25,753 nt of DNA from a virus (taxonomy: Duplodnaviria; Caudoviricetes). Position numbers and translations under genes: made by a program. Below are positions 1 through 25,438 of this stretch, in pieces (the first letter of the stretch is position 1; each line of letters begins with the position of its first letter). Under the pieces are notes generated by a model. That model saw nothing but the letters and a program-made list of their open reading frames with translations, had not been told where the DNA came from and searched no databases. The stretch covers positions 1 through 25,753 of the IMG/VR virus record IMGVR_UViG_3300048577_000532; one strand, written 5' to 3'.

Positions 1-1791
1 TTACATGTTTAACATGTTATATTGATCATCACTTGCTGCCTTGTCAGCTAAGAGCGAATACAATGAAATCCTATCCCCCCGTCGTGGAAATAAAGTAAAC
101 TTCGGGGATAACGCATACGCCAATCTAAATGATCCATTTTTGACAGGAAGCCGTGTAGGCCGCTTAGGATTTATTGTAGGGTAGAGCAAACCCAATGCAA
201 CGCATGCGGTAATCAATGTCCAAAACGAACCCGATATATTAGAGGGAATATCAATAGATGAATATACGCTTGAAGTCAATTTGCACTCAATAAAACGTCT
301 TTGGAAGCCTTTGCCAATTTTATTAATAAAGTCTACAATATTAGGACCAAGCTCTGGCTCACTATAAATTACGTCCAGCTCATTGTTTGAAAACTCTGTA
401 ATAATTCTATTTTGTTCTTTACTACTCAGCAGCTTCTTATATTTCTGAGAAGCCGCAATGCGTTTATTAGATAGAATATTTAGAATTCTATTAAAAATCC
501 GTATAAGCCTTCGCGGGTTACCATCTGAGCAGCGTATAACCATCTCAACGCCCGAGTAACATGAAATTTCTCCACGCCCTTTTGCTGTTAATACTTGATC
601 ACGAAGCCTTAAAACATTTATCAATTTGTTATGAAATTGAGGATCATATTTATTACTTTTATCTTCATCGAACGCTTTTTGCGCATTAATAAAAGTTTCA
701 GCACTGCAATGCTTTTTGATAAGATCAAGCGATACTTTCCTTAACTTTTCTTTATCGCCATTCGACATAAGAATATCTGATTCACCAAGCAAACGCTTTA
801 AATTTGATTTTTCCGTAAGCCTGGAAGTCTTTGATCTTTTGTTGTATAGAGTCTGGGCAAAATGATAAGTAGAAGTATATTCAAGTAAATTGTCCGCTGT
901 CCCTACTGGATCATTGTCAATATATAAATATTCAAAATCATGGCCTTCATTTAAGGAAATATCATTACCAAGGTTCGTTTTTAATGTCTTATGCTTGTAA
1001 GGCATTGTTGAAATTTTAAAAATTATTTCTTTAGTATCAGATCGCATACACGTATTTAATATTGCAAAATGGCTTTCATCTAAATACTCTGCTTCATCAA
1101 TGCAGATTAGCCAAGTTGTATGTGTAGGAAAATTTAATATTTCATTCACAATCCGGATTGCTGTTTTTAATGGAGCAAAAACATCAGTATAAAAGTAAAG
1201 CCCAATTAGTTTATCTTGATCTCGTTTCATAATTTTTGAGATTGCAACTTCAACACGCTTTTTGTTTTCCAGCCAACCTAAATGCTTTTCGAGCTGAAAT
1301 AATTCAAAAATTGGTTCATCAAAATTCCAAGAAGATGAAATTTCTGAAACAATTTGCCTCTCATACTTAATTCTATCAACTTCAGGTTTAACATAAGTAT
1401 CTAAACAACTTTTAAGCGTTGTAATGAATGACAAACAGGATGCGACATTAAGCTTCCATACAAAAAAATCTTCTTTTTCGCTTTCAGTTTGCCAAGGTTT
1501 ATTCTTTAATGCCCCAATCCATTCTATGCTTGTTGGTATAAAAACACCAATAAATTGTTTATTTTTTACAATCTTATTTATGCCTGTATCATGTGACAAA
1601 GACAAGTGATCATGTGATAACATTTTCAATAAACAAGTTTTTCCAGAGCCTCTTGATCCAAGTACTATGTGATTTTTTGATGACAATAATCTCCAAAACA
1701 AATCCGTCGGAACAAAAGTTTGTACAAGCTCATTTCTATTAAGATTTCTCGCATTATCAATTTCAAATAAATTTCTTTGGAATGGTTTCAT
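1..1791 (-). CDS. P-loop ATPase, ORC/Cdc6-like (STAND/AAA+-related) conflict-system ATPase
   Basis: Walker A IVLGSRGSGKT, Walker B WLICIDEAE, and a C-terminal YSG...SDGNPRRLIRI motif. The ORF track starts at TTG 1797, overlapping the upstream stop. ATG 1791 has AAGGGA 7 nt upstream and is preferred. The subfamily call is from recalled motif pattern. Confidence 0.75.
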   Translation of the reverse strand: MKPFQRNLFEIDNARNLNRNELVQTFVPTDLFWRLLSSKNHIVLGSRGSGKTCLLKMLSHDHLSLSHDTGINKIVKNKQFIGVFIPTSIEWIGALKNKPWQTESEKEDFFVWKLNVASCLSFITTLKSCLDTYVKPEVDRIKYERQIVSEISSSWNFDEPIFELFQLEKHLGWLENKKRVEVAISKIMKRDQDKLIGLYFYTDVFAPLKTAIRIVNEILNFPTHTTWLICIDEAEYLDESHFAILNTCMRSDTKEIIFKISTMPYKHKTLKTNLGNDISLNEGHDFEYLYIDNDPVGTADNLLEYTSTYHFAQTLYNKRSKTSRLTEKSNLKRLLGESDILMSNGDKEKLRKVSLDLIKKHCSAETFINAQKAFDEDKSNKYDPQFHNKLINVLRLRDQVLTAKGRGEISCYSGVEMVIRCSDGNPRRLIRIFNRILNILSNKRIAASQKYKKLLSSKEQNRIITEFSNNELDVIYSEPELGPNIVDFINKIGKGFQRRFIECKLTSSVYSSIDIPSNISGSFWTLITACVALGLLYPTINPKRPTRLPVKNGSFRLAYALSPKFTLFPRRGDRISLYSLLADKAASDDQYNMLNM

Positions 1792-1793
1792 GT

Positions 1794-3002
1794 TCAATCC
1801 CTTACAATATGCAACACATTAGAATTCTCTATTTGATGCACAACATATTTTAGCTCGGTGCAAATTTCACGAATGGCTTGCACAAAAATGTCGTTATTTA
1901 TATACTTATACGAAGCATCAAGTTTTATAATATCTGATGATTTTATCAGCTGAGCACCTTTAAATTTGTGAACAATTGCTTTTTTAATAATTTTTTTCAA
2001 TTCTTCTAGGTGCAGATGGCAGCCAAAAGGGTTTACATGTAAAATTCCATTATGTTTTTGGCTCTTGTTCCATTTATTTATACATGAATATGCGTAGCTA
2101 TAAATAAATCCCTGAATACTTTTTGATTCTTTACATCGACCTTCAATATGAACAATATGAAATTGATTAGAAATATGTCCAGCATATTCTGTTTCTAAAG
2201 TAGCAGAAAAACTTCCGGCGCCTAAAAACACGATTGGAATTCCCTTCGTACGTTGTATAGTACAGAATTTTGGTATATGTTTATGACCATGGATAACTAA
2301 GTCAAAATGCAAGTCTTCAATTGTGTTTAAAAGATTTTCACTATTTATCAATGAACTGAAATCTTTTACTTTATCGAGCAGGTCACTATAAAGTATTGGA
2401 TGATGATGTAATAATACAATTTTATATTTATGATTACTAATAGCTCCAATATCTGATTTTATCGCAGACAGGCTTTCGTTACTAACATATCCGTGATGCG
2501 GTTTATCATCTGGAATATCATGCATTGATGTGTTTATTCCTAATACGACAATATCATCATTTTCCCATTTACAATAATATGGATCTGCTATCAGATTTCC
2601 TTTCGCACTCTTTGCAATGTTTTGAAAAATGGTATTTGGTAAATTTAGCGCATCATATACTTTACTTGCATAATAACCTTCTACATCCCCTTCTTTTCTC
2701 AGCATATCCCAGTCTTTATCGTGATTACCTGGAACAAAAAATATATTTTTTGCATTAAGCTTTTCCCCAATAGACCCAATTAACTCTGACGCAATTTTGA
2801 TCTCATCAGCTTTAGCTTCGCAACTGACATCGCCAGAAACAAGCAAATAGTCAGCCGCGATATGTTCCTTTTCAAGAAATTCTAAAAAATGTTTTTTATA
2901 ATCTTCATCAACTGCGGGCATCCCGGAGCATCTTTCAGGCAATAAATCTTTTGCCCTAGCGTTTTTACCTATATGCATATCACTTATTATTGCAAATTTC
3001 AT
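1794..3002 (-). CDS. Calcineurin-like metallophosphoesterase with C-terminal extension
   Basis: Complete motif set: ISDMHIG (DxH), VSGDVS (GD), VPGNHD, LLHHHP, IHGHKH (GHxH). An extra ~80-aa basic/helical tail follows the catalytic domain. Confidence 0.92.
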   Translation of the reverse strand: MKFAIISDMHIGKNARAKDLLPERCSGMPAVDEDYKKHFLEFLEKEHIAADYLLVSGDVSCEAKADEIKIASELIGSIGEKLNAKNIFFVPGNHDKDWDMLRKEGDVEGYYASKVYDALNLPNTIFQNIAKSAKGNLIADPYYCKWENDDIVVLGINTSMHDIPDDKPHHGYVSNESLSAIKSDIGAISNHKYKIVLLHHHPILYSDLLDKVKDFSSLINSENLLNTIEDLHFDLVIHGHKHIPKFCTIQRTKGIPIVFLGAGSFSATLETEYAGHISNQFHIVHIEGRCKESKSIQGFIYSYAYSCINKWNKSQKHNGILHVNPFGCHLHLEELKKIIKKAIVHKFKGAQLIKSSDIIKLDASYKYINNDIFVQAIREICTELKYVVHQIENSNVLHIVRD

Positions 3003-3543
3003 AGTATTTTTTGGTTTTTGAATTTATTTGTATGATTACAATATCGGATTTATTCCTAGCCATGGATTAACACTATAACCGACGGAGCACAGCAATATTG
3101 AATACGCAAACTTCCTTTAAAATTAATATTACATTAGTTGATAAATATCTTTTCCGTCGCGCCTGGTTAAACCTCATATTTTATTAATGGCGAACGATAT
3201 TTATATCGATCCCGTCGGAGTTTGCAAGTCATAAATTTTAGCAATTCGTATCATGTCATACAAATAAACTTTAATATTTCGCCATGATATCCAACGAGTC
3301 CTCTTTTATGCACAGGACAGTCATTTCGCCCGGCATCTCCAATAAACTTTTCTATCCGTTTATCCGTTCGTTAGGCCATCTCCCAAATTTCAATCTACCT
3401 ATTTGATCTTGTTTTACTCTCTATGATCGGCATAAATCACATATTCGAGCAATTATTTAATGCATTGCTATTATTATGAACAGGCAATAGCACCTAGATT
3501 GATACTAATTTTTTTCTTTAAACAGAGATATAAAGCAGGATAA

Positions 3544-4371
3544 TTATTTAGTTATTTTATGAGTTATGATTGCTTCCTTAAACTTACCCCTTGCGCTTGA
3601 CTTCCCCGCTATTACGCTATCTCTTTCTACAATTTTTATTTTGAAATCTGATTCATATAAATTAGTAATAGACGAGTGACAAGAGTTTGTTAGTATAATT
3701 TTGCTACCACGTTTAGCAGCACGTCTTATTGATTTATATAATCTAACTTGATCATTCCAACTGAATAATTTTTCGTTATATTTAATGAAGCCATTATTTG
3801 AATGTTTTGTTGTATATGGTGGATCAATGAATATTAAATCGTCATTGCGACTCGCATTAATGATTTCTTCAAAATCTGTATTATATAATTCTACGCATTT
3901 TAAACACTCAGAAATTAACTGAAAGTTATCACTTCCAAGCATAACTCTGTCTTTGCTGCCGATTGGGACATTAAAATCACCTTTTTTATTTACACGGTAA
4001 AGCCCATTCCAGCATGTTCTATTCATATAGATAAATTTTGCTGCTTCTTCATAAGGACATGAACATTTCTTTTCTCGTGTATTATAATAATAATTTATAT
4101 TATGATTTTTACTATGTTTCAAAAGATTGATTACGACTTTTTCCCAGTCCTCCCTAATACACTTGTAAGTAAGAATTAATTCTTTACATACATCAGATAA
4201 GATCGCTTTTTGCGGCAAAACATGAAAAAATACAGCGCCACTCCCTAAAAATGGCTCTATATATCGGCCAAATTCAATATTAAAGAGTGATGGAAATGCT
4301 TTTGTGAGCCAGCGCTTCCCACCAGCCCACTTAAGAAATGGCTCTACATTACAAGACATTGCTTCATTCAT
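3544..4371 (-). CDS. Dam/DpnM-family (D12 class) N6-adenine DNA methyltransferase
   Basis: PFLKWAGGKRWL, motif I YIEPFLGSGAVFF, recognition hairpin NGLYRVNKKGDFNVPIG, catalytic FIDPPY. The start could be ATG 4359. Confidence 0.95.
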   Translation of the reverse strand: MNEAMSCNVEPFLKWAGGKRWLTKAFPSLFNIEFGRYIEPFLGSGAVFFHVLPQKAILSDVCKELILTYKCIREDWEKVVINLLKHSKNHNINYYYNTREKKCSCPYEEAAKFIYMNRTCWNGLYRVNKKGDFNVPIGSKDRVMLGSDNFQLISECLKCVELYNTDFEEIINASRNDDLIFIDPPYTTKHSNNGFIKYNEKLFSWNDQVRLYKSIRRAAKRGSKIILTNSCHSSITNLYESDFKIKIVERDSVIAGKSSARGKFKEAIITHKITK

Positions 4372-4526
4372 AAATTATACTTTTCGTTGCTATACCGTTT
4401 TATAAAACTACACTGACAATCTCAACTATATTATGTCGATATGGCCAGTTGTTTACATTTTAAATAAAATCTTTATTACCCAGAAATCTAAAACGAATTT
4501 TCTAATGAATATATTTTATGAGTGCT

Positions 4527-4552
4527 AAAATCTAGCCCCCCCGGGGGCTAGA
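4527..4552 (-). terminator. Probable intrinsic terminator (minus strand)
   Basis: Perfect inverted repeat TCTAGCCCCC-CC-GGGGGCTAGA (4531-4552) in AT-rich DNA, followed on the minus strand by TTTTAG. Confidence 0.6.
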
Positions 4553-4574
4553 AAGGCTCGATACGTCATTATCT

Positions 4575-5849
4575 GAGACCGCTGCCAGGCAAAATGCGCA
4601 GATTTTTCTTCTAATATTCTGAAATATTTGTCACACATCCTCCATTGAAAGAGCAAGATGCAATGATGAAAGAGCGCACTTCACCCCTGTCCGAACATTA
4701 TTGACTATGTTGCTGACCTGAAGAGAAAGAAGCACCTCACATTTCTGGATGACATCCAGAAGATCATCGACTGGCATCCGCTTGAGAAATTCTTACGCCA
4801 CAAGTTTCTCAGTAACAAGGATGCGGTTTGTAATCCAGCCTATCTGGCGCTCGTTATGTTCAAAATCCTTCTCTTGCAGCGCTGGTACAACCTGAGCGAC
4901 GAGGCCCTCGAATCCGCGCTCTACGACCGCATCTCCTTTGCTAGGTTCGCCGGTCTGTCGCTGGAGGACGACGTCCCGGACTCCACCACCATCTGTCGCT
5001 TCCGCTCCAGTCTCGCCCCGCGCGACCTCTTGACCAAGCTCCTCGGTTTGCTCAACCGGCAGCTCGAAGCCAAGAACATCCTGGTGCGCGAGGGCGCCAT
5101 CGTCGACGCCACCGTGGTCATGTCCTCCCGGCGGCCGAACAAGGTCATCGACATCATGCCCGAGGACCGCGAAGAGGACGCGGGCGACAAGTCGAGCGTC
5201 AAGGCCGTGATCACGTACTCCGACGACGCCGAGGCCACCTGGCTGCGCAAGGGCAATCGGGCGTTCTACGGCTACAAGGTCCACGCGGCCACCGAGTCGC
5301 GCGACGGCTTCATCCTCGGCGGCCACGTTACCCCGGCCAACCGCTCCGACACCGGCGAGTTCGAGCGTCTGGTGCTGGAAGCGGACGTGCCGGCCAAGGG
5401 CTACGTCTTCGCCGACAAAGGCTACGCCAGCAAAGCCAACCGCGAGACGCTCATCGGCCTCAGGCTCAAGGACGGCATCATGCACAAGGCGGCCCGCAAC
5501 AGGGCGTTGACCGACATGGAGCGACTGGACAACCGCTTGGTGAGCAAGGTGCGGGCGACCGTGGAAAGAAGTTTCGGGACGCTCAAGCGACTCTACGGCT
5601 TTGCTCGCAGTCGATACGTAGGCCTGGCCAAGGTCGAAATGGAATTCTACCTCAACGCCATGGCCTTCAACCTGAAGAAAGGCTTACGCCTGTGGGCTTG
5701 GTGATGGGAGTGGTGCGCCCTGTGACCGAAAAATAGGCCAAGAACGAGGCCGAAAGGGGCCCAAGAGGCAGATAGGGACGGCCTGTCAGGCGAAAAACGA
5801 CCAGCGAAATCAGCAGATGACTCGAATCTGCGGATTGTGCAGCGGTCTC
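4575..5849 (+). mobile_element. IS5-family insertion sequence (~1275 bp)
   Basis: Perfect 11-bp terminal inverted repeats GAGACCGCTGC (4575-4585) and GCAGCGGTCTC (5839-5849) enclosing an IS5-type transposase. No target-site duplication evident. Confidence 0.92.
4663..5704 (+). CDS. IS5-family DDE transposase, 5' end apparently frameshifted (possible pseudogene)
   Basis: Motifs LLLQRWYNLSD, VPDSTTICRFR, AIVDAT, FYGYKVH, FADKGY, VRATVERSFGTLK. The frame of ORF 4856-5704 stays open back to 4670 (FLDDIQKIIDW...NPAY) without an ATG, while ATGs at 4663/4666 lie in another frame that stops at ~4704. Confidence 0.85.
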
Positions 5850-5907: not shown

Positions 5908-6120
5908 CTACTCCCCCGGCTCCTCCGGCCAGTTCACCTCATCCGGAAACCCCTCCTGCTCCGGCACGTCTCGCAGATCTTGCCTGTAGGTAACCCACAG
6001 GGCCTTCGTCTCGTCGCTCAGGGGCGAGTCCGATAGCTGCGTCCAGTCGCAGGCGGCCAGGAGAGCGTTGCGCGTCTGCCGGACGGTGGCCGCCGTCTCT
6101 ACGGTAGCGGCGCGAACAGT
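5908..6120 (-). pseudogene. 5'-truncated phage tail fibre assembly chaperone remnant
   Basis: Manual translation (frame absent from the ORF track): ...VRQTRNALLAACDWTQLSDSPLSDETKALWVTYRQDLRDVPEQEGFPDEVNWPEEPGE*, matching the R-N-LL-DWTQ...W-YRQ-LRD-P-Q-GFP-WP-P chaperone pattern. There is an in-frame TGA at 6121-6123 and no ATG start. Confidence 0.8.
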
Positions 6121-6135
6121 TCACGAACTCGTCTT

Positions 6136-9100
6136 CTAGTTCTCGCTCCGTCTGAAAATCAAATCTCGGGGCTCGAAGTCCGGGTCGCCGGCGAGCAGAT
6201 CAAAGGCGCCGCGGGCGCTGATCTCGAGTTGTCTGGTCGGGAGCTTGAGCCAGGCGCCGGTGAGGGTCAGGGCCGGGCTGACGGCCTTGTCGGTCAACAG
6301 CTCGCCTTTCGAGGCCAGGGAGACGAGGCGCGTGGCCGAGGCGATGGTGCCCTCGACCGGGGTCAGCTTGTAGCCGCCGAACTCGGACACGACCGGGGAG
6401 GCCACGTCACGCACGAAGGGCAGCATGCCGAGGCCGAACCGGAGCGAGTTCATGGCCGCCCACTTGTCCCACTCCTCGTCATCCTCGGGCGGCCGGCCGG
6501 ACAGGAGCTCGGCCAGGCTCGGGCCGAGAAGGGCCAGCATGGTCGTGGTCAGCGCGAACTCGGCGAAGTCGATCCGCCGGCCCCGGAGCGGCTTGGTCAT
6601 CAGGTTGTAGGCCGTGGACAGGAAGGAATAGAACATGGTCGTGGCCTTCACGAACTCGCTCTTGCTGCGCTGCAGGGCGGACAGGTCTTTGAGCCCGCCG
6701 CCGCCCTGGCTCACGCGCACGACGTGGTCGGCGTACTGCACGGCCCGGGCGTGGTCCTGGTCGCGGGCGAGCCCGGCGTCGTAGGCCGCGCTCCAGGTCA
6801 GCACGTCCACGGTCATCTTCTGCGTCGCGCCGATGAACCTGAACATCCACTCGCCCGGCTTGCGCAGGAGCCGGCCGCCCATGCTCACGCTCTGGAACGT
6901 CTCGTTCGCCTCCCGGGTCGCGTGCGTGATCCGCGTGCGCATGAAGGCCGAGCTTTCATTGGCCCGGCGCAGGTCGTCGAGAAAGGGCTTGACCGTGAAG
7001 TAGCCCGGCAGGCGTTTGAGCAGCCGCCAGGACTGGCCCTTGAGCACGGCGACCGACTGCGTGAGCCCCGCGGCCTGCTGGAGGCCGACGCCGATCTTGC
7101 CCAGGGAGACGACGGTGGTGCCGATGCGAAGCGAGCGGAAGACCCGCTCGGGCCAGGCGTGAGGCTCGTACGGCAGGTTGGCGATGTCCTTAGCCCAGGG
7201 CAGGAGTTGGTCGGCCAGCTCCTTGCCGAGGTGGCGGCCCGCCGCGGCCTTGAACTCCCTGTCGCGCAGAATCTTGCCGACGTTGACCAGGCGCTCGCGG
7301 TGGCTGAGGTCGTGGATGACGCCGAAGACGTGGCGGGTGATGTCGGAGAGCTCCACGGATAGCGGCTGCCCGCCGGCCGTGGCTTTGCGCTCCTTCAGGT
7401 AGCTGTGTTTGGTCATGACCTGGGAGTACTTTTTGGTGCCGTAGAGGAGCGCCTGCTCGACCTCGCTGCGCTCGGCCTGGATGTCGGATTCGGACGGGTC
7501 GATGACCACCGGGAAGTAGCCGCCGGCATAGGTGCCGAATCGCGTCTCCACGGGCTCGGGCATGACCCGTTCGGGCTCGCGGCCGGTCATTTCCCGTTCG
7601 AGCGCAAAGGCCTCCGTGCGGAAGGTGTCGATGTAGTTCCAGACGGCTTGGACGAAATCCCAGTCGCGCTTGTCGAGCCGGGCTTTCACCGCCTCCATCT
7701 GTTTGTCCGTCCAGGGCGCGCCGTCCGGCAGGGTCGTGCCGTCGCGCCGGCGCGAGTAGTTGCCCTGGTTGCCCATGTCGAGCGCCAGGCGCAGGAGCTG
7801 CGCCCGAGTGAAGGACTCGCCGCACTCCGGGACCAGGACCCGCTTGCGAAACATCGCCGCGCGCTCGGCCGGCGAGTAGTGCCGCGCCATGAGCCCGGCC
7901 AGGTTCACGCTCGCTTCGGCGCAGCGCTCGGCTTCGGCCTCCTCGGACTGCGCCGTGGGGGAAAACAGATGCTTGTGCCACGGCCCGAGGTCGTCGCCGT
8001 CGATGGCCCGGAAAAGCACCTCCATCTTGACCATGCTGGCGTCCGCGCCCTTGAGGGCGGACAGGACCTTGTGCAGCCGACTCGAGGCTCGTTCGTGCCG
8101 GCCGCCCGGCTTGCCCGGGGCGAAGGTCGCGGCCAGTTGGGCGGTCAGCTCCCGCACCACCTCCTCGCGGCGCCGGTACTCGCCCTCGGATTTGACGAAA
8201 CGCTCCTGGCGGTCCACGGCCGCAATCTGGTCGATGGCCGTGAGCACGTCCCGGAAATTCTGCACGGACAGGTCGCCGAACTGCTGGGCGTTTGACCTGT
8301 CCGTGACCAGGTCCGGCAGGGCCACGCTGTAGCCCTTCTCGCCCGAGAGCCGTTCCCAGGCCGTGAAGTCGATGGCCCGGCGCGGGGTGCCCTGGGCGTC
8401 GGCCTGGGCGCTGTAAGCGTTGTAGGCCCGGAGGAAGTCCTCGTGCGACATGCCGGGCGGCCGGGGCGCAAAGCCGAAGCGCACGCCGATGTTGCGGATG
8501 AGGTCGCGCGCCTCCTGGTACATGACCTTGGAGGCCAGGGACTGACGGACCTTGCGCACCCCGGCGTCGATCTCCTCGCGCACGCGCATGGATTCGAGCA
8601 CGAGGGCGTGGTTCAGCATCTCCCGGCGCTTGAACTCCATGGCCTTCTCGAGGCTGCCGGCGTCCCGGGCCTGGCGGGCGAGCTTGCCGGCCCGAATCTC
8701 GGCCTGGGAGAAGCGGTCTGCCCGGCGGGCATCGCTTACGCTCTTGCCGGCCAGCACCTGCCGGGCGACCTCGCGCACCGCGTCGCCCTCCATGCGCCGC
8801 GCCCGGGCCTGGGTCAGCCCGGCCTTGCGTCGCCGGGCCGCGCGCAGCATCTCGAACTCCGCGGCCAGCACGGCCAAGCGCTCGTCGGTATGGTAGTCCT
8901 CCTCGGCCGAGGGCAAGGTGGACTCGTCCAGGCCGGCGCGGATTTCGGCCTCCTTCGCCTGCTGCAGCTCCTCGGCCCGGCGCTGGATGCGCCCGGTCTT
9001 GCCCTCGGCGCCGAGAATGGAGGCAACCATGTCCGGCACTGAGGCGAAGCCGGCGTCCCTGGCGACCTGGTCCGGGGGCTCGCCGCCGTTGGTCCGGACC

Positions 9101-12100
9101 ATGCCCGCGCGCTTTTTCGCCAGCTCCTTGCGGGCATCCTCGCCGACGTAGGCGTCCAGGTCGGCCGCGCTCATGCCGCCGGCCGCCGCGGCCGCGTCCA
9201 TGGCCTTGCAGGCCGGCAGGGTTTCCGTTTCCCGCCGCGCCTCGGCCTCAAAGGCCTTCTGTCCGCCCAAGGCCTGGACGTAGGCCCCGACGTAGCGGCG
9301 AAGGCGCCGGTCCCGGGCCGATTCCTGCGCGGCTTGAATCTTCTTTTCGTAGGCCGCCTTTTCTTCCCGCGCCATCTGCTCGGCCGTGGTGAAGAACGGC
9401 TGGGCCGCCTCGTGCATGGCCTCGACCTCGGCTATCTCCTGGTCCGTGGCGAAGAGGCGGTCGAACAGGCCGGCGAGCTTGGCCGAGGGCTTGGAACCGA
9501 GCCTAGCCAGGCTCCCGTAAATCTGCCGCAGCCAGGCCGCGAAGCGCTGGAAGACACCTTGCAGCCGGCGCGACGGGGCTTTGCCTCCCAGGAAATAGGC
9601 CTCGAGGGACCTGGCCCATTTCTCGTGGGCCGCCTCGTCGATTTCGCCGTCGTCCTGGATGCCCAGCTCCGCTTTGACCGCCTGCCACTCTTCCTTCAGG
9701 CGCGGGTCGGCCGCCTCGGCCGTGGCCAGGGCGCGGGTGAATTCCAGGAAGACGTGCCCGGACTCGTGCAGGAAGGTGCTTTCGTTGGCCGTCTCGAAGA
9801 GGGCGAGGATGTTCCCGGCGCGGTCGAAGGCCCCGCGGGGTCCTTGTCCGAGACCGCCCTGATAGAGGGCATCGACGATGCTGATGGCCTGGTCGTCGAA
9901 GATGACGTAGTTGTACGAGCCCCTGCCTGGTCGGCGGCTGCCCTGGTCGAGGTAGCGTATCCCCTTGATGCCGAGGCTGTTCAGGTGCCGCGAGGCGTTC
10001 TCCCGCGACCCGCGCGTCTTCTCCAACGCCCTGTAGAACGTGCTGCCGCTGTCTGTTGCCTCGAAGGTCCCGTATTCCAATCCGAGGGCGCGCAGAGCGG
10101 AAGCGAGCTGCCGCTTTCCGTTGTCCTTCGGGCGGAGGTAGCCCTCCTCTTTCAGGAAGGCCTTGATGGCGTTCTGGACCTTCGGAGGTTGCGCGGCGAA
10201 AGGCTTGTCCCAATCCAACATCGTGTCGTCTTCGGGGATTTCCGCCTCGAAGACTCGCCCCTGAACGGCCTTGATGCCCTTCTTTGATTTGATGGACATG
10301 GCCGTGTCGTACATTTTCTGCCAGTAGGCGACGCCGCCCTGTTCCTTCGCCCAGGGCTTGCCCTCCTTTGCCGCCTCAAGGCCTTCCTTGCCGACGCGTC
10401 GGGCGGTCGTGACGCCATCGTGAAACGCAAGGTTTATTGCATGGGCCTCCGGTCCGGACCGGCCTTTGTAAACCTCGCCATTCCACGTGTAGGTATAATC
10501 CGCGGTTCCCCGGCTCAGCTTGTCGCGGTAGAAGTCGGCGACTTCCTTCCGGCCGGCGAAATAGAGCCCCCAGCCATAGGATTGGGCACCTTCGCCGGTT
10601 CCGACATGCTCAAGGCTGAACGAATCGAAGTCGTAAGGGGTGCCGTGGAAAGCCCGCTGGAACAGCCGGCTGCCGCTGTCCTTCAGCCGGCGCCAGCCGG
10701 TGCCCAGGCTCTTCAGTTTCTCGACCAGGTCCGAGTCGGTCGAGCCCTCGGGCATGAGGCCCATGCCGACCAGCTCAGCGTTGGCCTCATCGATGGGCAG
10801 GCCGCCCGCCTTGAACAGGGACGGGCCGAAGGCGCGGGTGAGTTCCTTGTACTCGCCTGGGTAGTCGGCGCGCAGGCTCTTGCCGCTGATGCGGCCCCAA
10901 ACAGATTCCAGGATGGGATGAAATTCGCGGGGGGACTTGAGCTGTGAGGCGTAGTAGTCGGCGAGAGCTTCAGCCTCGTCCTCGGGCACTACATGGACGA
11001 GAGATAGGTCCCATTCTTTGAGGGCATGGTCGACCGTTTCCGGGTCTTCGCCCTCGGCAACTAGCTGCTCGGCGACTCTGAGGACGGTGTCGTCTCGGAC
11101 GAAGATTTCATCTTCACCCGCTTCTCGTAGTCTTTGCCGTATATGATCCGCAACAGAGCCTGCACCCTCGTCGCGGATTGACGGATGCTCTCCGGGCTGC
11201 CCAGCGGGTACTTCAGCGGATTCAGCTTGTTGGCCATGGCTGTCGGGCTCCTCGGGGGTAGTTTTTACCTCGTTTGGGCCGGGAGCGGAAGGCGTCCGCT
11301 TCTGCGCCACCAGGGCCGGAGTGGCAGGCGCGGGCGCGGTGCCCGTCTCCGCCCTCGCGGCCGGCTCATTTCCCGCCATCCTCGGGGCGGCTTCCACCGG
11401 CCCCTGCGGCCCGGCCAGCTCGGGCCATGCCGCCTCGAAGGCCTTGAGCGGCGAGCCCTCGAATTGCTGGTCCAGGTATCCCCGCCTGGCCATGGTGCCG
11501 AAGAAGGCGGACCAGACGGCCGCGTCGCTCCCGGCGGTCCGGGTGGCCCGGCCCAGGGCCTCGCGTTGCGTCCGGACCGTCTCGTAAATCTGGCGCGTTT
11601 CGGCCTCGATCCGGTCTTCGGCCTGGCGGTCGGCGGCGGCCGCATCCACGATGCGCCGGGTTTCCTCGGCCTGGGTTTTCAGCCAGTCGGCGCGCTCGCG
11701 CAGGGTCATGGACTCGGGCCGCAGGCGGATGTCGTCCTTGAGCGCGGCGTCCAGCGGGGTATTGACGGCCACGGCCAGGTACTTCGCCAGGGGAATTGTC
11801 ACGTCGCCCCCGGTGCCCACGGCCTCGGTCACCTGGTCCGGAGTGATGCCGAATTGCCCCAACACGTCCTCGTAGGCCCCGGATTCCGAAGTAGCCGCCT
11901 GCTGGAAAAGAGCGCCGTCGATGTGGATGTCCCGGGGGGCCTCCGGATGCCCCTCGAGCTGCATGGCCAGCGCCTGCTCGAACTTCGCCGGGCTGCGCTC
12001 GCGCAAGGGGTTGCCGGCGGCCATCTGCCGCAGGCCGTCCAGATAGCCGGCCTCGTCCTCGGCGGCCGCGGCGTTCCCGGCCTCCTGGACCGCGCGCTTG

Positions 12101-13422
12101 ATGTCGGCCACGCCCCGGCTGCGGGCGCTGTCCGTGAGACGGAAGGGAACCTGGACCGTGGCCACGGCGCCGGGCACCAGCGTGCCCACGATGCCGCCGA
12201 CCAGGCCCTGATAGAGGGTGTCCGGGCTTGCGGCGATGTCCGGGGTGGCCGCCAGGAACTCCCGGGCCAGCTGCCGGGCGGTCAGCTTGGGGTTGGCCGC
12301 CAGGATGTCCGCGAAGGCGTCCGGGAAGGCCTGGAGGTATTCCTCCACGAAGTTGCTTGCGAAGGCCTCGACGAGAGGCATGGCCACGCCGGAGCGCTTC
12401 ATCAGCTTGGCCACGGCGCCGAACTGCAGCACGTTGCCGGCGTATTCGAGCGGGGCCTGGCCCAGGGCCGAGAGGAAGGCCGCCTTGCGCGCCGTGGCCT
12501 CGTCAGCGCCGCCTGCCCGCAGCTCCTTGTACTTGGCGCCGGACATCTGGGTGTAGGCGTCCGCCGTGCCGATGACCGGCCCGCCGAAGGCCGAGGACAG
12601 CATCATGGGCAGGGAGCCGGACAAGCCCCGGGCGATGTCCTCCACGATGCCGGAAGACGCGGCCGCGAGGTCGGGGTCCATCTGCAACGCAGGCGTAGCG
12701 GCGATGTCCTCAAAGCGTTTCACATAGCGGGCGTTGTGCTCCCTGGCCGCCTGGGTTTCGGCCTCCTCTTGGGGCATGCCCTGGGCCAGGTTCGTGTTGA
12801 CCAGGTCCCAATAGATGGTGTTTGCGTCCCGGTCCTCGCCCTCGATGGCCGGCATGGGTCCGGAGGCCAGGCGCCGCTGGTAGGCCTGAACGTCGGCGTA
12901 GTCCGCAAACTCTGCCTTCTCCTGGATCGCCGCGCCGGCCGCGCGGTCCGAGAGCGCCTGCAAAAAGGACTGGCCCGTGGCCCGCAGGAAGCGCTCGAAC
13001 GTCAACTCGGGCTTGCGCGGCGCAGCCTGCTGCTGCCGTTCCATGTCCGCCAGGGCGGCGGCCGCGTCCCGGGCCAGCTCCATGTTTCCGGGCGAGGTCA
13101 GGAATCGCGCGGTGGCCGGGGCCTCGCGCTCGATCACCCGCAGGCGTTGCGCCTCGGCATACTTCTCGGCCCGGTCCGGGTCGGCCTGGACGATCTTTGC
13201 CGGCAACCCGGTCGCGGCCGTCAGGTCCTGATTGCGCCTGGCCTGGTCCGGCGAGAGCGTGGCCGCCTTGGCCACTGCCGGCAGCGAGGGGCCGGGCCGG
13301 CTCGGCGCCGGGCTGGCCCCGCTTGCGGCAAAGACCGCGTCCATGCTCCCCGGCTTCGGCGCAGGCTGGTCTTGCCTCGTCCCCAGCGCCTCCCGGAAAA
13401 CGTCGTCCATGGTGGGCATCAC
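6136..13422 (-). CDS. Giant internal virion/ejection protein (T7 gp16 position), large polyvalent protein
   Basis: 2428 aa and last of three post-tail genes. Contains an ART-like segment (FHGT...GTGEGAQSYGWGLYFA...GIRYLD...NYVIFD, aa ~922-1188), a zincin-like TFLHESGH (HESGH at aa 1219-1223) with downstream HEKWARSLEAY, and a C-terminal region with GGYFPV and hydrophobic helices. Confidence 0.8.
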   Translation of the reverse strand: MMPTMDDVFREALGTRQDQPAPKPGSMDAVFAASGASPAPSRPGPSLPAVAKAATLSPDQARRNQDLTAATGLPAKIVQADPDRAEKYAEAQRLRVIEREAPATARFLTSPGNMELARDAAAALADMERQQQAAPRKPELTFERFLRATGQSFLQALSDRAAGAAIQEKAEFADYADVQAYQRRLASGPMPAIEGEDRDANTIYWDLVNTNLAQGMPQEEAETQAAREHNARYVKRFEDIAATPALQMDPDLAAASSGIVEDIARGLSGSLPMMLSSAFGGPVIGTADAYTQMSGAKYKELRAGGADEATARKAAFLSALGQAPLEYAGNVLQFGAVAKLMKRSGVAMPLVEAFASNFVEEYLQAFPDAFADILAANPKLTARQLAREFLAATPDIAASPDTLYQGLVGGIVGTLVPGAVATVQVPFRLTDSARSRGVADIKRAVQEAGNAAAAEDEAGYLDGLRQMAAGNPLRERSPAKFEQALAMQLEGHPEAPRDIHIDGALFQQAATSESGAYEDVLGQFGITPDQVTEAVGTGGDVTIPLAKYLAVAVNTPLDAALKDDIRLRPESMTLRERADWLKTQAEETRRIVDAAAADRQAEDRIEAETRQIYETVRTQREALGRATRTAGSDAAVWSAFFGTMARRGYLDQQFEGSPLKAFEAAWPELAGPQGPVEAAPRMAGNEPAARAETGTAPAPATPALVAQKRTPSAPGPNEVKTTPEEPDSHGQQAESAEVPAGQPGEHPSIRDEGAGSVADHIRQRLREAGEDEIFVRDDTVLRVAEQLVAEGEDPETVDHALKEWDLSLVHVVPEDEAEALADYYASQLKSPREFHPILESVWGRISGKSLRADYPGEYKELTRAFGPSLFKAGGLPIDEANAELVGMGLMPEGSTDSDLVEKLKSLGTGWRRLKDSGSRLFQRAFHGTPYDFDSFSLEHVGTGEGAQSYGWGLYFAGRKEVADFYRDKLSRGTADYTYTWNGEVYKGRSGPEAHAINLAFHDGVTTARRVGKEGLEAAKEGKPWAKEQGGVAYWQKMYDTAMSIKSKKGIKAVQGRVFEAEIPEDDTMLDWDKPFAAQPPKVQNAIKAFLKEEGYLRPKDNGKRQLASALRALGLEYGTFEATDSGSTFYRALEKTRGSRENASRHLNSLGIKGIRYLDQGSRRPGRGSYNYVIFDDQAISIVDALYQGGLGQGPRGAFDRAGNILALFETANESTFLHESGHVFLEFTRALATAEAADPRLKEEWQAVKAELGIQDDGEIDEAAHEKWARSLEAYFLGGKAPSRRLQGVFQRFAAWLRQIYGSLARLGSKPSAKLAGLFDRLFATDQEIAEVEAMHEAAQPFFTTAEQMAREEKAAYEKKIQAAQESARDRRLRRYVGAYVQALGGQKAFEAEARRETETLPACKAMDAAAAAGGMSAADLDAYVGEDARKELAKKRAGMVRTNGGEPPDQVARDAGFASVPDMVASILGAEGKTGRIQRRAEELQQAKEAEIRAGLDESTLPSAEEDYHTDERLAVLAAEFEMLRAARRRKAGLTQARARRMEGDAVREVARQVLAGKSVSDARRADRFSQAEIRAGKLARQARDAGSLEKAMEFKRREMLNHALVLESMRVREEIDAGVRKVRQSLASKVMYQEARDLIRNIGVRFGFAPRPPGMSHEDFLRAYNAYSAQADAQGTPRRAIDFTAWERLSGEKGYSVALPDLVTDRSNAQQFGDLSVQNFRDVLTAIDQIAAVDRQERFVKSEGEYRRREEVVRELTAQLAATFAPGKPGGRHERASSRLHKVLSALKGADASMVKMEVLFRAIDGDDLGPWHKHLFSPTAQSEEAEAERCAEASVNLAGLMARHYSPAERAAMFRKRVLVPECGESFTRAQLLRLALDMGNQGNYSRRRDGTTLPDGAPWTDKQMEAVKARLDKRDWDFVQAVWNYIDTFRTEAFALEREMTGREPERVMPEPVETRFGTYAGGYFPVVIDPSESDIQAERSEVEQALLYGTKKYSQVMTKHSYLKERKATAGGQPLSVELSDITRHVFGVIHDLSHRERLVNVGKILRDREFKAAAGRHLGKELADQLLPWAKDIANLPYEPHAWPERVFRSLRIGTTVVSLGKIGVGLQQAAGLTQSVAVLKGQSWRLLKRLPGYFTVKPFLDDLRRANESSAFMRTRITHATREANETFQSVSMGGRLLRKPGEWMFRFIGATQKMTVDVLTWSAAYDAGLARDQDHARAVQYADHVVRVSQGGGGLKDLSALQRSKSEFVKATTMFYSFLSTAYNLMTKPLRGRRIDFAEFALTTTMLALLGPSLAELLSGRPPEDDEEWDKWAAMNSLRFGLGMLPFVRDVASPVVSEFGGYKLTPVEGTIASATRLVSLASKGELLTDKAVSPALTLTGAWLKLPTRQLEISARGAFDLLAGDPDFEPRDLIFRRSEN

Positions 13423-15119
13423 TTCGCCCCCTGGTAGGCTTTGTATTCGTCGGTCCGGAGATAGCGGCCGTCGGCGTAGATGCTCTTCAGCTGCTCGTCG
13501 GTCAGGCTGATGCCCCGCCGCTCGGCCTCCCCGCGCAAGAAGGCGGCGTCCTTCTTGGGGATGTCGCCGATTTCCACGCTGTGCATTTTGAACTGGCGCA
13601 CGGTGTCGTCGAAGAGGAAATCCGCGTCATACACGCGCTTCACCGCCTGGCGGTCGGCCTCCTCCTGGATTTCCTCGTCGCCGGGGTTCTGGCCGTGCTT
13701 GGCGCGGTACTCGCCGACGAAGCTCTTCAGCGTGCGGTTGAACAAGGTCCGGTCTTCGGCCTTCTCAAGCCCCAAGTCCTTGAGCGAGGCATCGACCTCG
13801 GCCAGCTTGCGCGCCACCCGGGCGCCGGCCGCGTCCTCGCCCATCTTGGCCAGGTCCTTCAAATCCTCGCGGCCGATCTTCAGCAGATACTTGCTCTGAA
13901 AGGCCTTGGCGTTGAACGCCCGCGCGCTCCCGACCTCGTTCATGGCCTCGGCATAGGCCTCCGGGTCCGTGACCACGTCCCGGCCACTCAAGGCCTGGTC
14001 CACGATGCGCCGGGCCGAGGTGCGCGTCCCCAAGTCGCCGATCTGCTCCACCCTGGCCCGGTACTTCTTCAGGCCCTCCAGGTCCTGGGCCGCCAGGAGC
14101 TTCTGCACGTTCTCGTCGACCAGCAGCACGGCGTCGTGCCGGGCCTCCTCGCGCTCCTTCTTGTGCGCAGAATAAAAACTCTCGACCCAGCCCATGATCT
14201 TGCGCTCGGCCCCGGCGTCGCCTTGGGCCGCCTTCTTCACCGCGCCGGCATAGGTGGCGAAGTCCGCGCCCCGGCCGTGCTCCTGCATGATCCTGCTGGC
14301 CGCGTCGTAGGCCTCCTGGTCGGCCGTGGCGCTCCGGAGCGCGTCCTTGATCCTGGTCTGCGCCTCGCCCGAAATGCCGTCGGCATGGGCCTCCAGGTAA
14401 GCCCGGGCGGCCTTGGGGCTGGCCATGAGCATGTCGGCCAGGATGCGCTGATGAAACTTCGTCGTCTCGTCCTTCACCAGGCTGTCCAGGACCTCGGGCG
14501 AATGGCCGTCGTCCGCGTACATCCTGCGCACGTTCGCCGAGAGCTTGCCGGCCATGGCGTCCAGCCCGGCCCAGGGGGTTGCGTCGCCGTGCGCGAACAG
14601 CTCCACGGCCGCCGGGGCCTGGTCGCGCTGGGCCGCGTCGGTGATCTGCTGGGATTCGGCCAGGAGCGTCGATTTCTGGAAGGTCTTCAGCTGCTGCGTC
14701 TGCCAGTCCGCGGCCCAGGAGCCGTAGGCGTTCTGCAGCTGGGAAAAGGAGGCGTCGAAGAGCGCGCGCTGCCGCTCGTTTGAGAGCTGGCCCGAGGCCT
14801 GGTCCCGCCGGTCCTGGAAATAGGCGCCCGTCTCGTCGAAGACCTGCAAGCCCGCCTGGCCGAGCTTGCCTTGCTCGACGCCCATCTTGTAGGAAAGCGC
14901 GGCCTCGCGCTCCTGGTTCATGACCTGGCGGACTTGGGCCTCGTCCTCGATGTCGCGCTCCCGCCGGGCCTGGTCCAGGAGCACGTCGGAAAGCTGGCCG
15001 AGAGCAGCGCCGAAATCGCGCATGCCGGCGCCCACGGGCACGGCCTGGGCCGCGGGAATGCGGACCTCGGGAATCTCCCGTTGCGGGGCGTTTGAAACGT
15101 AGCGTTGGACTTTGGGCAT
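13419..15119 (-). CDS. Internal virion/ejection protein (T7 gp15 position)
   Basis: 566 aa, helical, MPKVQRY N-terminus typical of this slot. Overlaps the giant gene by 4 nt. The call rests mainly on synteny. Confidence 0.65.
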   Translation of the reverse strand: MPKVQRYVSNAPQREIPEVRIPAAQAVPVGAGMRDFGAALGQLSDVLLDQARRERDIEDEAQVRQVMNQEREAALSYKMGVEQGKLGQAGLQVFDETGAYFQDRRDQASGQLSNERQRALFDASFSQLQNAYGSWAADWQTQQLKTFQKSTLLAESQQITDAAQRDQAPAAVELFAHGDATPWAGLDAMAGKLSANVRRMYADDGHSPEVLDSLVKDETTKFHQRILADMLMASPKAARAYLEAHADGISGEAQTRIKDALRSATADQEAYDAASRIMQEHGRGADFATYAGAVKKAAQGDAGAERKIMGWVESFYSAHKKEREEARHDAVLLVDENVQKLLAAQDLEGLKKYRARVEQIGDLGTRTSARRIVDQALSGRDVVTDPEAYAEAMNEVGSARAFNAKAFQSKYLLKIGREDLKDLAKMGEDAAGARVARKLAEVDASLKDLGLEKAEDRTLFNRTLKSFVGEYRAKHGQNPGDEEIQEEADRQAVKRVYDADFLFDDTVRQFKMHSVEIGDIPKKDAAFLRGEAERRGISLTDEQLKSIYADGRYLRTDEYKAYQGAK

Positions 15120-15145
15120 GTTCGACTCGCATCACCGTTGCCGGT

Positions 15146-15625
15146 TCACTTGAAATAGCTGCTGTACGCCCCCATGGTCTTCGATGCGCCGCTGAGCAGG
15201 GTCGAGGCCGTGTTCCAGTAGCCGCTCGAAATCGCGCTCCTGGCCTGCATGCCGTAGATCGAGCCCTGCGTGCGCTGCGCCCAGGCGTTGGTCTTGTAGT
15301 TCTGCCGGATGATCTGCGCGTCGAGCTCGCCTTGCTCGGCCGTGTCCGCGAGCACGTCGGCGGCCGAATCCTGGTCCACGATGACGCCTGAGGCGGCCAG
15401 GCCCGCGCGCTGCTGGCCCTTGATCTGGGCCACCCGGTTGCGCTGGCGCTGCATCTCGGTGCGGCCCTGCTGCTCGGTGAGCGCGGCCGAGGCGTTGGCG
15501 GCATTCTGGTTGGCCTTGGCCACGGCCGCGGTCTGCGAGGCCTGCACGGCGCTGCCGACGGTGCTTGTGGCCGTGGCCGCGGCCATGGCCGCGATGGAAC
15601 CCACGGCCAGAGCGGTCATTCCCAT
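15146..15625 (-). CDS. Small internal virion protein (T7 gp14-like)
   Basis: 159 aa, Ala/Gln-rich, hydrophobic N-terminus, GQQRAGLAASGVIVD motif, and expected position. Confidence 0.75.
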   Translation of the reverse strand: MGMTALAVGSIAAMAAATATSTVGSAVQASQTAAVAKANQNAANASAALTEQQGRTEMQRQRNRVAQIKGQQRAGLAASGVIVDQDSAADVLADTAEQGELDAQIIRQNYKTNAWAQRTQGSIYGMQARSAISSGYWNTASTLLSGASKTMGAYSSYFK

Positions 15626-15626
15626 C

Positions 15627-16094
15627 TCAGTCCCTCCTCATCCAGAAGCGGTAGAACGGCGCGCCCATGCGGCCCATGGCCACCGGCGCGCCGTCCAGGG
15701 TGAAGCCGCACCACCTGAGCCAGGCGATGCAGCGCGAATACTCGGCGTCCACGTAGTTCTCGAGCACGGGGAACAGGGAAAGCATGTAGTGGGCGAAGGT
15801 CCGGGAGTGGCGGGCGAAGGACAGCCAAATGCGGTCCACGAGGGCCGACGAGAGCAGCCAGGGCACGCCCACGTCCGAAACCAGAGAGCGGTAGGCCACC
15901 CCGAACATGGCCGCGACCTCGCCGCCGCACAGGACCGTCCAGGCCGCCCGGGAGGCGGTGAGCGACTGGCGCAGCAGCTCGCGCGGCAGCAGCGCCGAGA
16001 CGCGCATCTCGGCCAGGACCTCCGGGCGCAGCCGGGGCGCCAGCTCCTCCACGTGCCCGGGCCGGGCCTGGACGACGCCGACGCTAGCCGCCAA
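15627..16094 (-). CDS. GNAT-fold phage virion-assembly protein (T7 gp13-like)
   Basis: 155 aa with AMFGV...GVPWLL...LENYVDAEYSRCIAWLRWCGF pattern. Lies between tail tubular protein B and the internal proteins. Confidence 0.75.
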   Translation of the reverse strand: MAASVGVVQARPGHVEELAPRLRPEVLAEMRVSALLPRELLRQSLTASRAAWTVLCGGEVAAMFGVAYRSLVSDVGVPWLLSSALVDRIWLSFARHSRTFAHYMLSLFPVLENYVDAEYSRCIAWLRWCGFTLDGAPVAMGRMGAPFYRFWMRRD

Positions 16095-18438: not shown

Positions 18439-18440
18439 GG

Positions 18441-19034: not shown

Positions 19035-19053
19035 GCTTCATGCTCCCGGGAAT

Positions 19054-19081
19054 GCGCCCCAGGCCGTTTCACCCGGGGCGC
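19054..19081 (-). terminator. GC-rich stem-loop after capsid/cement genes (attenuator or mRNA-stabilising hairpin)
   Basis: Minus strand GCGCCCCGGG-TGAAACGG-CCTGGGGCGC, a 10-bp stem with one G-U pair. No U-tract follows. Confidence 0.45.
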
Positions 19082-19087
19082 GCCCCC

Positions 19088-19489: not shown

Positions 19490-19515
19490 CTCGGTTTCTC
19501 CTTTCGGTCCCGGCC

Positions 19516-20523: not shown

Positions 20524-20535
20524 CTTCGTTCACTC

Positions 20536-23227: not shown

Positions 23228-23243
23228 GTCCGGCCTCGCCCGC

Positions 23244-23444: not shown

Positions 23445-23456
23445 GGCTTTTTCTCC

Positions 23457-25434: not shown

Positions 25435-25438
25435 GGCC

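What the first reader, a model, noticed from the sequence alone, without database searches (positions are those of the whole stretch)
1..4371. Candidate anti-phage system: Dam-family methylase + calcineurin-like phosphoesterase + ORC/Cdc6-like ATPase
Seen: three co-oriented, intact, AT-rich genes at the distal end of a GC-rich phage late operon. The phosphoesterase and ATPase abut or overlap, and no restriction endonuclease is visible. Known: calcineurin-like phosphoesterases act as nucleotide-targeting effectors and P-loop ATPases as sensors in bacterial conflict systems, and prophage late-operon ends often carry defence morons. Inference: the methylase marks self DNA or acts as a guarded decoy, the ATPase senses unmethylated DNA or a phage factor, and the phosphoesterase depletes nucleotides or signals (abortive infection). 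I do not recognise this trio as a named, tested system, but cannot exclude that it is catalogued. It may extend left of position 1.
Basis: partly seen in the sequence, partly recalled or inferred. Interest (0 to 1): 0.85.

Follow-up and report, generated by a model that had tools for sequence, protein, structure and literature searches.

The report
Methylase-linked phage-defence cassette, sensor cut off
A damaged prophage sits beside three intact genes (a DNA adenine methylase, a phosphoesterase and an ATPase) from a widespread but untested four-gene cassette that likely stops phage infection, probably by sensing methylated nucleotides; its fourth, sensor-like gene is predicted to lie just past the edge of the sequence.

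Summary
The three genes are real and intact (32.6% GC against 68% in the phage). They are three quarters of a conserved cassette: Dam methylase, calcineurin-like phosphoesterase, ORC-CDC6-like ATPase (PF24389) and a CARF6 protein. CARF6 follows the ATPase in 25 of 26 genome loci; the record ends on the ATPase stop codon, so that gene is predicted just outside. The methylase is the exchangeable part. Ten cassettes, from at least two lineages, lack it, and all ten hosts carry their own Dam. One cassette has an unrelated adenine methylase. This window's methylase comes from a lineage that normally partners DndB-like proteins. So the system seems to need the m6A mark rather than one particular enzyme. 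The best reading is Metis-like: CARF6 would sense methylated nucleotides from a degraded chromosome, and the ATPase would switch on a nucleotide-destroying phosphoesterase. This is untested. An IS5 and a terminator-like hairpin separate the cassette from the late genes. The prophage lacks its tail fibre, and a sister phage has other cargo in this slot. The parts are catalogued; I found no named or tested system, but two key papers were unavailable. This scan reported the cassette at least seven times on other DNA.

The parts
3544..4371 (-). Dam-family N6-adenine DNA methyltransferase, 275 aa, predicted GATC-specific; from a lineage that normally partners DndB/DGQHR or HerA proteins
   Evidence: TIGR00571 E 1e-66; best solved relatives M.DpnII-1 E 5e-47 and E. 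coli Dam; hairpin R126, N128, V135, P136 in 55 of 55 cassette MTases, window included; nearest kin 41-57% identical, of which 74 of 80 lie near DndB-like or HerA genes
3003..3543 (.). 541-bp non-coding AT-rich gap between methylase and phosphoesterase, unusually long; no recognisable gene remnant
   Evidence: No stop-to-stop frame over 43 aa inside; tblastn of 4881 ORFs gave one 34-aa hit at E 6.5e-4, blastn none; relatives at most 114 bp in 41 of 43
1794..3002 (-). Calcineurin-like metallophosphoesterase with a C-terminal winged-helix-like domain, 402 aa; predicted effector
   Evidence: PF00149; metal ligands conserved in 23 aligned sequences; C-terminus aligns (hhalign 99.8%) with a relative that scores PF24408 wHTH-Calcineurin_assc at E 8e-15; weak match to DS-9A model, 84 bits against cut-off 420
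1..1791 (-). ORC-CDC6-like (STAND-clade) AAA+ ATPase, 596 aa from the ATG (598 from TTG at 1797), arginine inside the P-loop; predicted switch
   Evidence: PF24389 E 9e-98; G47 R49 G50 G52 K53 T54 D234 E235 invariant in 44 sequences; 330 homologues at E<=0.001 among 8000 candidates scored
1..3 (-). ATPase stop codon at the edge of the record; a ~310-aa CARF6 gene is predicted directly beyond it (not seen)
   Evidence: CARF6 directly downstream in 25 of 26 genome loci (the miss ends inside the ATPase) and 41 of 43 further loci; 24 of 24 aligned members hit PADLOC CARF6 models, best E 3e-74
4537..4556 (-). Terminator-like hairpin facing phage late transcription, upstream of the cassette
   Evidence: Consensus scan only
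4575..5849 (+). IS5-family element; transposase frame shifted near its 5' end (about 4690); not part of the cassette
   Evidence: NF033581 E 2.5e-69; terminal inverted repeats; frame translation
5939..6124 (-). Remnant 3' part of a tail-fibre assembly gene; the tail fibre gene and the 5' part of this gene (about 2.0 kb) are missing relative to a sister phage
   Evidence: Sister phage L124, 91-92% nucleotide identity; its 620-aa and 135-aa genes match tail-fibre and assembly PHROGs; junction at window 6136/6130

Best explanation
These three genes are the visible part of a conserved four-gene cassette (adenine methylase, phosphoesterase, ORC-CDC6-like ATPase and a CARF6 protein predicted just left of the window) that likely acts as an abortive anti-phage system keyed to the m6A mark. 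Proposed working: the methylase (here predicted to act on GATC) pre-marks the host chromosome. When a lytic phage degrades it, m6dA-containing nucleotides would accumulate and bind the tandem CARF6 protein. CARF6 would then trip the ATPase, which would activate the phosphoesterase to destroy an essential nucleotide (NAD+ or dNTP/dNDP, as in Metis MisA), halting phage growth. Shown here: genes, intact motifs, co-conservation, CARF6 identity of the fourth gene in relatives, exchange and loss pattern of the methylase. Inferred: anti-phage role (about 0.85), need for m6A (about 0.75), CARF6 ligand, ATPase coupling and substrate (about 0.45 together).
For: Core conserved: ATPase upstream of CARF6 in 70 of 72 and phosphoesterase in 64 of 67 genome loci with enough flank; Dam in 46 of 54 fully flanked loci, 38 upstream and 8 downstream. 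Of the 8 without Dam, 5 hosts have a housekeeping-type Dam elsewhere. Five more methylase-less cassettes, found in a sample of 401 genomes of that order, all have host Dam too. These ten are not one clade (AU p 1.1e-7). L032 has an unrelated D12-class DPPY methylase in the same slot and no Dam in the genome, with an ATPase 45% identical to the window's. Distance correlation is 0.76-0.85 among the three core proteins but 0.58-0.59 with the methylase (50 loci), and cassette methylases fall in several clades. In distant PF24389 loci the effector slot holds PRTase-CE or HD-CE instead. The fourth protein models as two Rossmann-like halves (pLDDT 92.7), and its tightest local match is the Csm6 CARF domain (prob 1.0, rmsd 4.2 over 139 columns). 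Precedent: Metis needs host Dam, senses m6dAMP and uses a calcineurin-like NAD+ diphosphatase; its authors foresee versions with their own methylase. A sister phage has different defence-like cargo in the same slot.
Against: No phenotype, ligand or substrate is known. The CARF6 gene is not seen in this record. The proven m6dAMP sensors are PUA-like or MisC pockets, not CARF. No MisB-like HAD was among the genes conserved across the 26 loci. Two cassettes (L067, L080) have no Dam-family match in operon or genome, and L067 also lacks the phosphoesterase. One Vibrio bin (L020) has both host and cassette Dam. The GATC hairpin is kept in 55 of 55 Dam-type cassette methylases, which a site-reading model predicts equally well. 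The Foldseek match covers one half only (TM 0.28), and looser tandem USP-like matches rank higher by E-value. The loss pattern rests on two independent lineages, one on long branches.
Confidence: 0.45

Rival explanations
1. Self/non-self reading on DNA: the methylase protects host GATC sites, the ATPase (with CARF6 as cofactor) detects unmethylated GATC on incoming DNA, and the phosphoesterase is then released.
For: Loss of the methylase in Dam-positive hosts fits this equally. GATC hairpin kept in 55 of 55 Dam-type cassette methylases. ORC/Cdc6-clade ATPases are described as DNA binders and proposed DNA sensors in HINPO systems.
Against: L032 pairs a close ATPase (45%) with an unrelated methylase, which a fixed GATC reader should not tolerate; this is one case. 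It gives no role to the near-invariant CARF6. No nuclease is conserved in the cassette.
Confidence: 0.25
2. In this window the methylase is a stranded piece of a different system (Dam plus DndB/DGQHR protein) that merely lies upstream, and the cassette proper is phosphoesterase-ATPase-CARF6.
For: The window methylase is only 28-37% identical to the main clade that accompanies its ATPase's close relatives, and nests with 98 support among 28 non-cassette methylases. 64 of its 80 nearest loci carry a DndB-like gene and only 2 of 80 have cassette genes within 6 kb. The 541-bp gap is atypical.
Against: It sits in the canonical slot and orientation, is intact, shares the low GC, and no partner remnant was found in the gap or upstream. 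Other cassettes also use different Dam lineages, and two sit beside a Dam-DndB pair (L164, L186), so borrowing is normal. Either way it would supply the same mark.
Confidence: 0.13
3. CARF6 senses a cyclic oligonucleotide or other messenger made by another immune system or by the phage, and the methylase is only a habitual neighbour. The phosphoesterase could be the effector or a signal eraser.
For: CARF domains are known cyclic-oligoadenylate sensors. Nearest solved phosphoesterases include cyclic-nucleotide phosphodiesterases Lmo2642 and Rv0805.
Against: No cyclase or Cas10 is conserved in the 26 neighbourhoods. It does not explain why ten methylase-less copies all occur in hosts with Dam.
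Confidence: 0.1
4. Guard model: the methylase is a decoy held in a complex, and a phage anti-restriction protein that hits it triggers the effector.
For: Tight linkage of the methylase to the cassette in 46 of 54 loci.
Against: The methylase is replaced by distant lineages, by an unrelated family, or absent, and tracks the core less well than core proteins track each other. Catalytic motifs are fully kept.
Confidence: 0.07

Closest known systems
Catalogued but untested ORC-CDC6-like (PF24389) + CARF6 + conflict-effector neighbourhoods (Pfam PF24408, PF24390, PF24391; PADLOC CARF6 models)
   Same: Same ATPase family, same calcineurin-wHTH effector type, same CARF6 partner in relatives. Makarova 2014 (PMC4012209, passages) already notes a kinase + AAA+ with arginine in the P-loop + CARF family, which matches the kinase-fused relatives L120/L121.
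   Different: No name or experiment found in my searches. The papers I recall as the source of these models (Makarova 2020 NAR 48:8828; Nicastro 2023 NAR 51:11479) were not held, so whether they show this exact four-gene order is unchecked. This copy has a methylase from another lineage.
Metis type I = DS-9 = PUA-Cal-HAD (MisA/MisB)
   Same: Calcineurin-like effector; dependence on adenine methylation (shown for Metis, inferred here); some MisA homologues lie with their own methylase.
   Different: No PUA-like N-terminal domain (the phosphoesterase starts at residue 1), no conserved HAD gene, DS9_1 model 84 bits against cut-off 420 on the catalytic part only; adds an ATPase and CARF6.
DS-8 (metallophosphatase-NACHT) and other STAND-effector systems
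   Same: Metallophosphatase plus STAND-type P-loop ATPase, both needed for DS-8 defence.
   Different: DS-8 is one protein with a NACHT domain; DS8 model 33.5 bits against 790; no methylase or CARF.
Type II GATC restriction-modification (DpnII-like) and BREX
   Same: GATC-type m6A methylase (M.DpnII-1 best solved relative); BREX also joins a methylase with an ORC/Cdc6-clade ATPase.
   Different: No endonuclease; no PglZ, BrxX or BrxC matches; the methylase is dispensable in Dam-positive hosts.
HINPO (HEPN-iNTase-ParA-ORC/CDC6; 10.64898/2026.10.19.760177)
   Same: ORC-CDC6/STAND ATPase in a predicted immune operon, with proposed sensing of nucleotide breakdown products.
   Different: No ParA, iNTase or HEPN here; HINPO passages mention no methylase or CARF6.

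Membership tests
MTase-phosphoesterase-ORC-CDC6-CARF6 cassette (unnamed) | PF24389 ATPase with intact Walker A/B | tested here: met
MTase-phosphoesterase-ORC-CDC6-CARF6 cassette (unnamed) | Calcineurin-like phosphoesterase of the cassette family directly upstream of the ATPase | tested here: met
   29-39% identity to 22 cassette phosphoesterases, 2-bp gap
MTase-phosphoesterase-ORC-CDC6-CARF6 cassette (unnamed) | N6-adenine methylase adjacent or supplied by host | tested here: met
   Intact Dam-type gene upstream, though of another lineage and 541 bp away
MTase-phosphoesterase-ORC-CDC6-CARF6 cassette (unnamed) | CARF6 gene directly downstream of the ATPase | not testable with these tools
   Record ends at the ATPase stop; held genome equals the window; no run or parent record was listed
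Metis type I / DS-9 / PUA-Cal-HAD | PUA-like sensor fused N-terminal to the calcineurin domain | tested here: not met
   PF00149 starts at residue 1; DS9_1 matches only profile positions 199-452
Metis type I / DS-9 / PUA-Cal-HAD | Adjacent HAD phosphatase (MisB) | tested here: not met
   None in the window; only four genes are conserved across 26 loci
Metis type I / DS-9 / PUA-Cal-HAD | Activation by m6dAMP and NAD+/dNTP depletion | not testable with these tools
   Needs biochemistry
Type II R-M (GATC) | GATC-type m6A methylase | tested here: met
   specificity inferred from sequence, residue roles recalled
Type II R-M (GATC) | Cognate restriction endonuclease beside the methylase | tested here: not met
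   None in 1-4574 or conserved in relatives
BREX | PglZ alkaline-phosphatase fold, BrxC ATPase, BrxX methylase | tested here: not met
   No BREX model hit in PADLOC, Pfam or NCBIfam
DS-8 / DS-41 | Equivalog score over cut-off | tested here: not met
   DS8 33.5/790; DS41_1 40.2/370

The most novel reading that the evidence does not exclude
A self-contained methyl-mark alarm: the cassette writes m6A into its host's chromosome with whatever adenine methylase it can recruit, and a CARF6 protein reads methylated nucleotides released by phage-driven genome destruction to fire a STAND ATPase and a nucleotide-destroying phosphoesterase. This would make CARF domains sensors of a modified deoxynucleotide and give a second, unrelated solution to Metis-type sensing across many phyla.
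Probability: 0.35. Interest if true: 0.8.

Novelty: new member of a known kind. Interest (0 to 1): 0.52.

Why it matters
The cassette occurs in more than a dozen bacterial phyla and, in the papers I could search, has no name or experiment. The methylase exchange-and-loss pattern gives a sharp, cheap test: dependence on m6A, and m6dAMP binding by CARF6. A positive result would give CARF6, a CARF clade with no cyclase partner in these loci, its ligand, and would supply the self-methylating Metis analogue that Osterman et al. foresee. This copy adds a natural methylase swap and a phage cargo slot, but it is incomplete in the record, and the scan has reported the cassette before.

Full report
OBSERVATION. 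The window's first 4.4 kb holds three intact minus-strand ORFs: a Dam-family methylase (3544-4371; TIGR00571 E 1e-66), a calcineurin-like phosphoesterase (1794-3002; PF00149 E 3e-16) and an ATPase matching the whole PF24389 ORC-CDC6-like profile (1-1791; E 9e-98). Catalytic motifs are complete: DPPY; DxH, GD, GNHD, HHH, GHKH; GSRGSGKT and DEAE. GC is 32.6% against 68% for the phage genes. The phosphoesterase stop is 2 bp from the ATPase ATG; the methylase is 541 bp away. PADLOC 2.0 and NCBIfam give no named system: DS9_1, DS8 and DS41_1 score far below cut-off.

SETTING. Bases 5939-25753 are podovirus-type terminase, portal, capsid, tail and internal virion genes. Between them and the cassette lie an IS5 element (4575-5849, transposase frame shifted near 4690) and a terminator-like hairpin, so the cassette is probably not read from the late operon. 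One sister phage, L124, is 91-92% identical in DNA. After the large virion gene it has a tail fibre and an assembly gene, then lower-GC cargo: an OLD/AriA/GajA-like ABC ATPase and a DUF2188/PDC-S16 gene. The window joins the large gene's stop straight to the middle of the assembly gene, about 2.0 kb shorter, so this prophage lacks its tail fibre at this position. The slot therefore looks like a variable cargo site, on the evidence of two phages. No attachment site or tRNA is visible, so the prophage boundary is not shown.

THE FOURTH GENE. Among 26 genome loci with an ATPase relative (two carry an identical ATPase), the phosphoesterase is present in 24, Dam in 23 (21 in the window's order), and a ~310-aa gene follows the ATPase in 25; the miss ends inside the ATPase. 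No other gene is conserved. All 24 aligned members hit PADLOC CARF6 models (best E 3e-74) and none of the 11 scanned has a significant Pfam hit. The AlphaFold model of one member (pLDDT 92.7) has two Rossmann-like halves. Foldseek's tightest match is the Csm6 CARF domain (prob 1.0, rmsd 4.2, 139 columns, TM 0.28), though looser USP-like matches rank higher by E-value. Starting from CARF6 (81 loci, 2 dropped for no CARF ORF): ATPase upstream in 70 of 72 and phosphoesterase in 64 of 67 with enough flank; Dam in 46 of 54 fully flanked loci. In 62 metagenome loci plus one viral contig (2 dropped for no ATPase ORF; some repeat the genome loci): phosphoesterase 58 of 58, CARF6 41 of 43, Dam 29 of 31. 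The record ends on the ATPase stop codon, so CARF6 is predicted just outside but was not seen. A hand-picked set of 60 neighbours, with no control, includes type I R-M, GmrSD, McrBC, MmeI, AbiH, Abi_2, HipA, WYL, integrases and recombinases. In more distant PF24389 loci the effector slot holds PRTase-CE or HD-CE, or the ATPase is fused to a kinase or ParA.

THE METHYLASE IS EXCHANGEABLE. I searched 48 of the genomes behind these loci for TIGR00571. The five methylase-less cassettes in Serratia, Enterobacter, Paraglaciecola, Pseudoalteromonas and Shewanella all have a housekeeping-type Dam elsewhere (E 1e-89 to 1e-101). A sample of 401 genomes of that order gave five more cassettes, none with Dam in 8-kb flanks, all with host Dam. 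Eight of the ten form one clade and two lie far away; one clade is rejected (p-AU 1.1e-7, quick tree with long branches). L032 has a non-Dam D12-class methylase in the slot and no Dam in the genome, with an ATPase 45% identical to the window's. Against the pattern: L067 and L080 have no Dam-family match anywhere (L067 also has another gene in place of the phosphoesterase), and the Vibrio bin L020 has both. Across 50 complete loci, pairwise distances correlate at 0.76-0.85 within the core and 0.58-0.59 with the methylase (pairs are not independent). The window's own methylase is 28-37% identical to the main cassette clade but up to 57% identical to methylases found by a separate scan. It nests among these with support 98 (41 of the 80 were in the tree). 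Of the 80, 64 have a DndB/DGQHR-like gene and 11 a HerA within 6 kb; 2 have cassette genes, across the DndB gene. So this copy carries a recruited methylase, which fits the long gap; no partner remnant was found there. It keeps the hairpin shared with M.DpnII-1 and E. coli Dam, so GATC specificity is likely (residue roles recalled).

MECHANISM. A cassette that keeps an active adenine methylase unless the host has Dam, and accepts unrelated ones, most simply needs the m6A mark, not a partner protein. Metis shows how such a mark can act as an alarm: it needs host Dam, senses m6dAMP, and uses a calcineurin-like NAD+ diphosphatase; its authors foresee self-methylating versions (10.1101/2025.11.05.686725, parts 1-3 of 5 read). 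The PUA-Cal-HAD preprint reports dNTP depletion for the same system (10.64898/2026.01.15.699771; abstract, section 5, first part of Discussion). I therefore favour CARF6 as the sensor of m6dA-containing breakdown products, the ATPase as switch and the phosphoesterase as effector (0.45). Rivals are self/non-self reading of GATC on DNA (0.25), a merely adjacent methylase in this copy (0.13), sensing of another messenger (0.10) and a guarded decoy (0.07). Every step after gene content is inference; binding between the proteins was not addressed.

COMPARISON AND NOVELTY. It works, by hypothesis, like Metis but is not a member: no PUA domain, no HAD. It is not type II R-M, BREX, DS-8 or DS-41. Its parts are catalogued (PF24389, PF24408, CARF6). 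Ten literature searches listed no paper naming or testing this cassette. I saw passages only of PMC13092281, PMC4012209, PMC12839542, PMC11090510, 10.1101/2024.04.23.590562, PMC10853773 and 10.64898/2026.10.19.760177. Makarova 2020 (PMC7498327) and Nicastro 2023 (PMC10681802), which I recall as the sources of the CARF6 and PF243xx/PF244xx models and which may well depict this neighbourhood, were not held; I saw them only as references. The supplements of the two Metis preprints were not seen and may list related loci. The scan's own notes hold seven earlier reports of the same cassette on other DNA, one with the same Metis-like reading. I had reached the four-gene and Metis-like readings before that look-up (notes), and those reports are not independent evidence.

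VERDICT. Real, conserved, probably anti-phage, computationally catalogued and untested: a new member of a known kind. This copy adds a methylase swap and a phage cargo context. Interest 0.52; novel case probability 0.35, interest 0.8 if true.

Noticed in passing
window 5912-6136 against L124 11506-13748: The prophage lacks about 2.0 kb holding the tail fibre gene and the start of the tail-fibre assembly gene, so it may be defective while the cassette beside it is intact.
   Followed up: partly
window 4575-5849: IS5-family element with terminal inverted repeats, no obvious target duplication, and a frameshift near the 5' end of the transposase.
   Followed up: partly
L124 14182-16286: Sister phage carries an OLD/AriA/GajA-like ABC ATPase (615 aa) and a DUF2188/PDC-S16 gene in the same slot; possible PARIS- or Gabija-like cargo cut by the contig end.
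   Followed up: partly
L125-L204: A large Dam lineage is tied to DndB/DGQHR proteins (single ~780-aa, or split ~190 + ~390 aa, or ~320 + ~290 aa) or to a HerA + ~450-aa pair; these look like further methylase-linked defence systems that I did not identify by name.
   Followed up: partly
L032 3722-4954: An unrelated 410-aa D12-class adenine methylase fills the Dam slot of a close cassette in a genome with no Dam match.
   Followed up: partly
L067 5279-6214: A 311-aa protein with no Pfam or PADLOC hit and no significant PHROG hit replaces the phosphoesterase upstream of ATPase-CARF6; candidate new effector.
   Followed up: no
L117, L120, L121: PF24389 ATPases fused to ParA or to a Ser/Thr kinase; CARF6 follows in L117 and L121, and a different methyltransferase follows in L117.
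   Followed up: no
window 6136-13422: The 2428-aa internal virion protein is about 350 aa longer than in the sister phage, differing in its middle part.
   Followed up: no
L051 near 8950-9100: The Enterobacter methylase-less cassette sits directly beside tRNA-Sec, an island integration site.
   Followed up: no
L019 and L020: Identical ATPase proteins in a Motiliproteus bin and a Vibrio bin; recent transfer or mis-binning.
   Followed up: no
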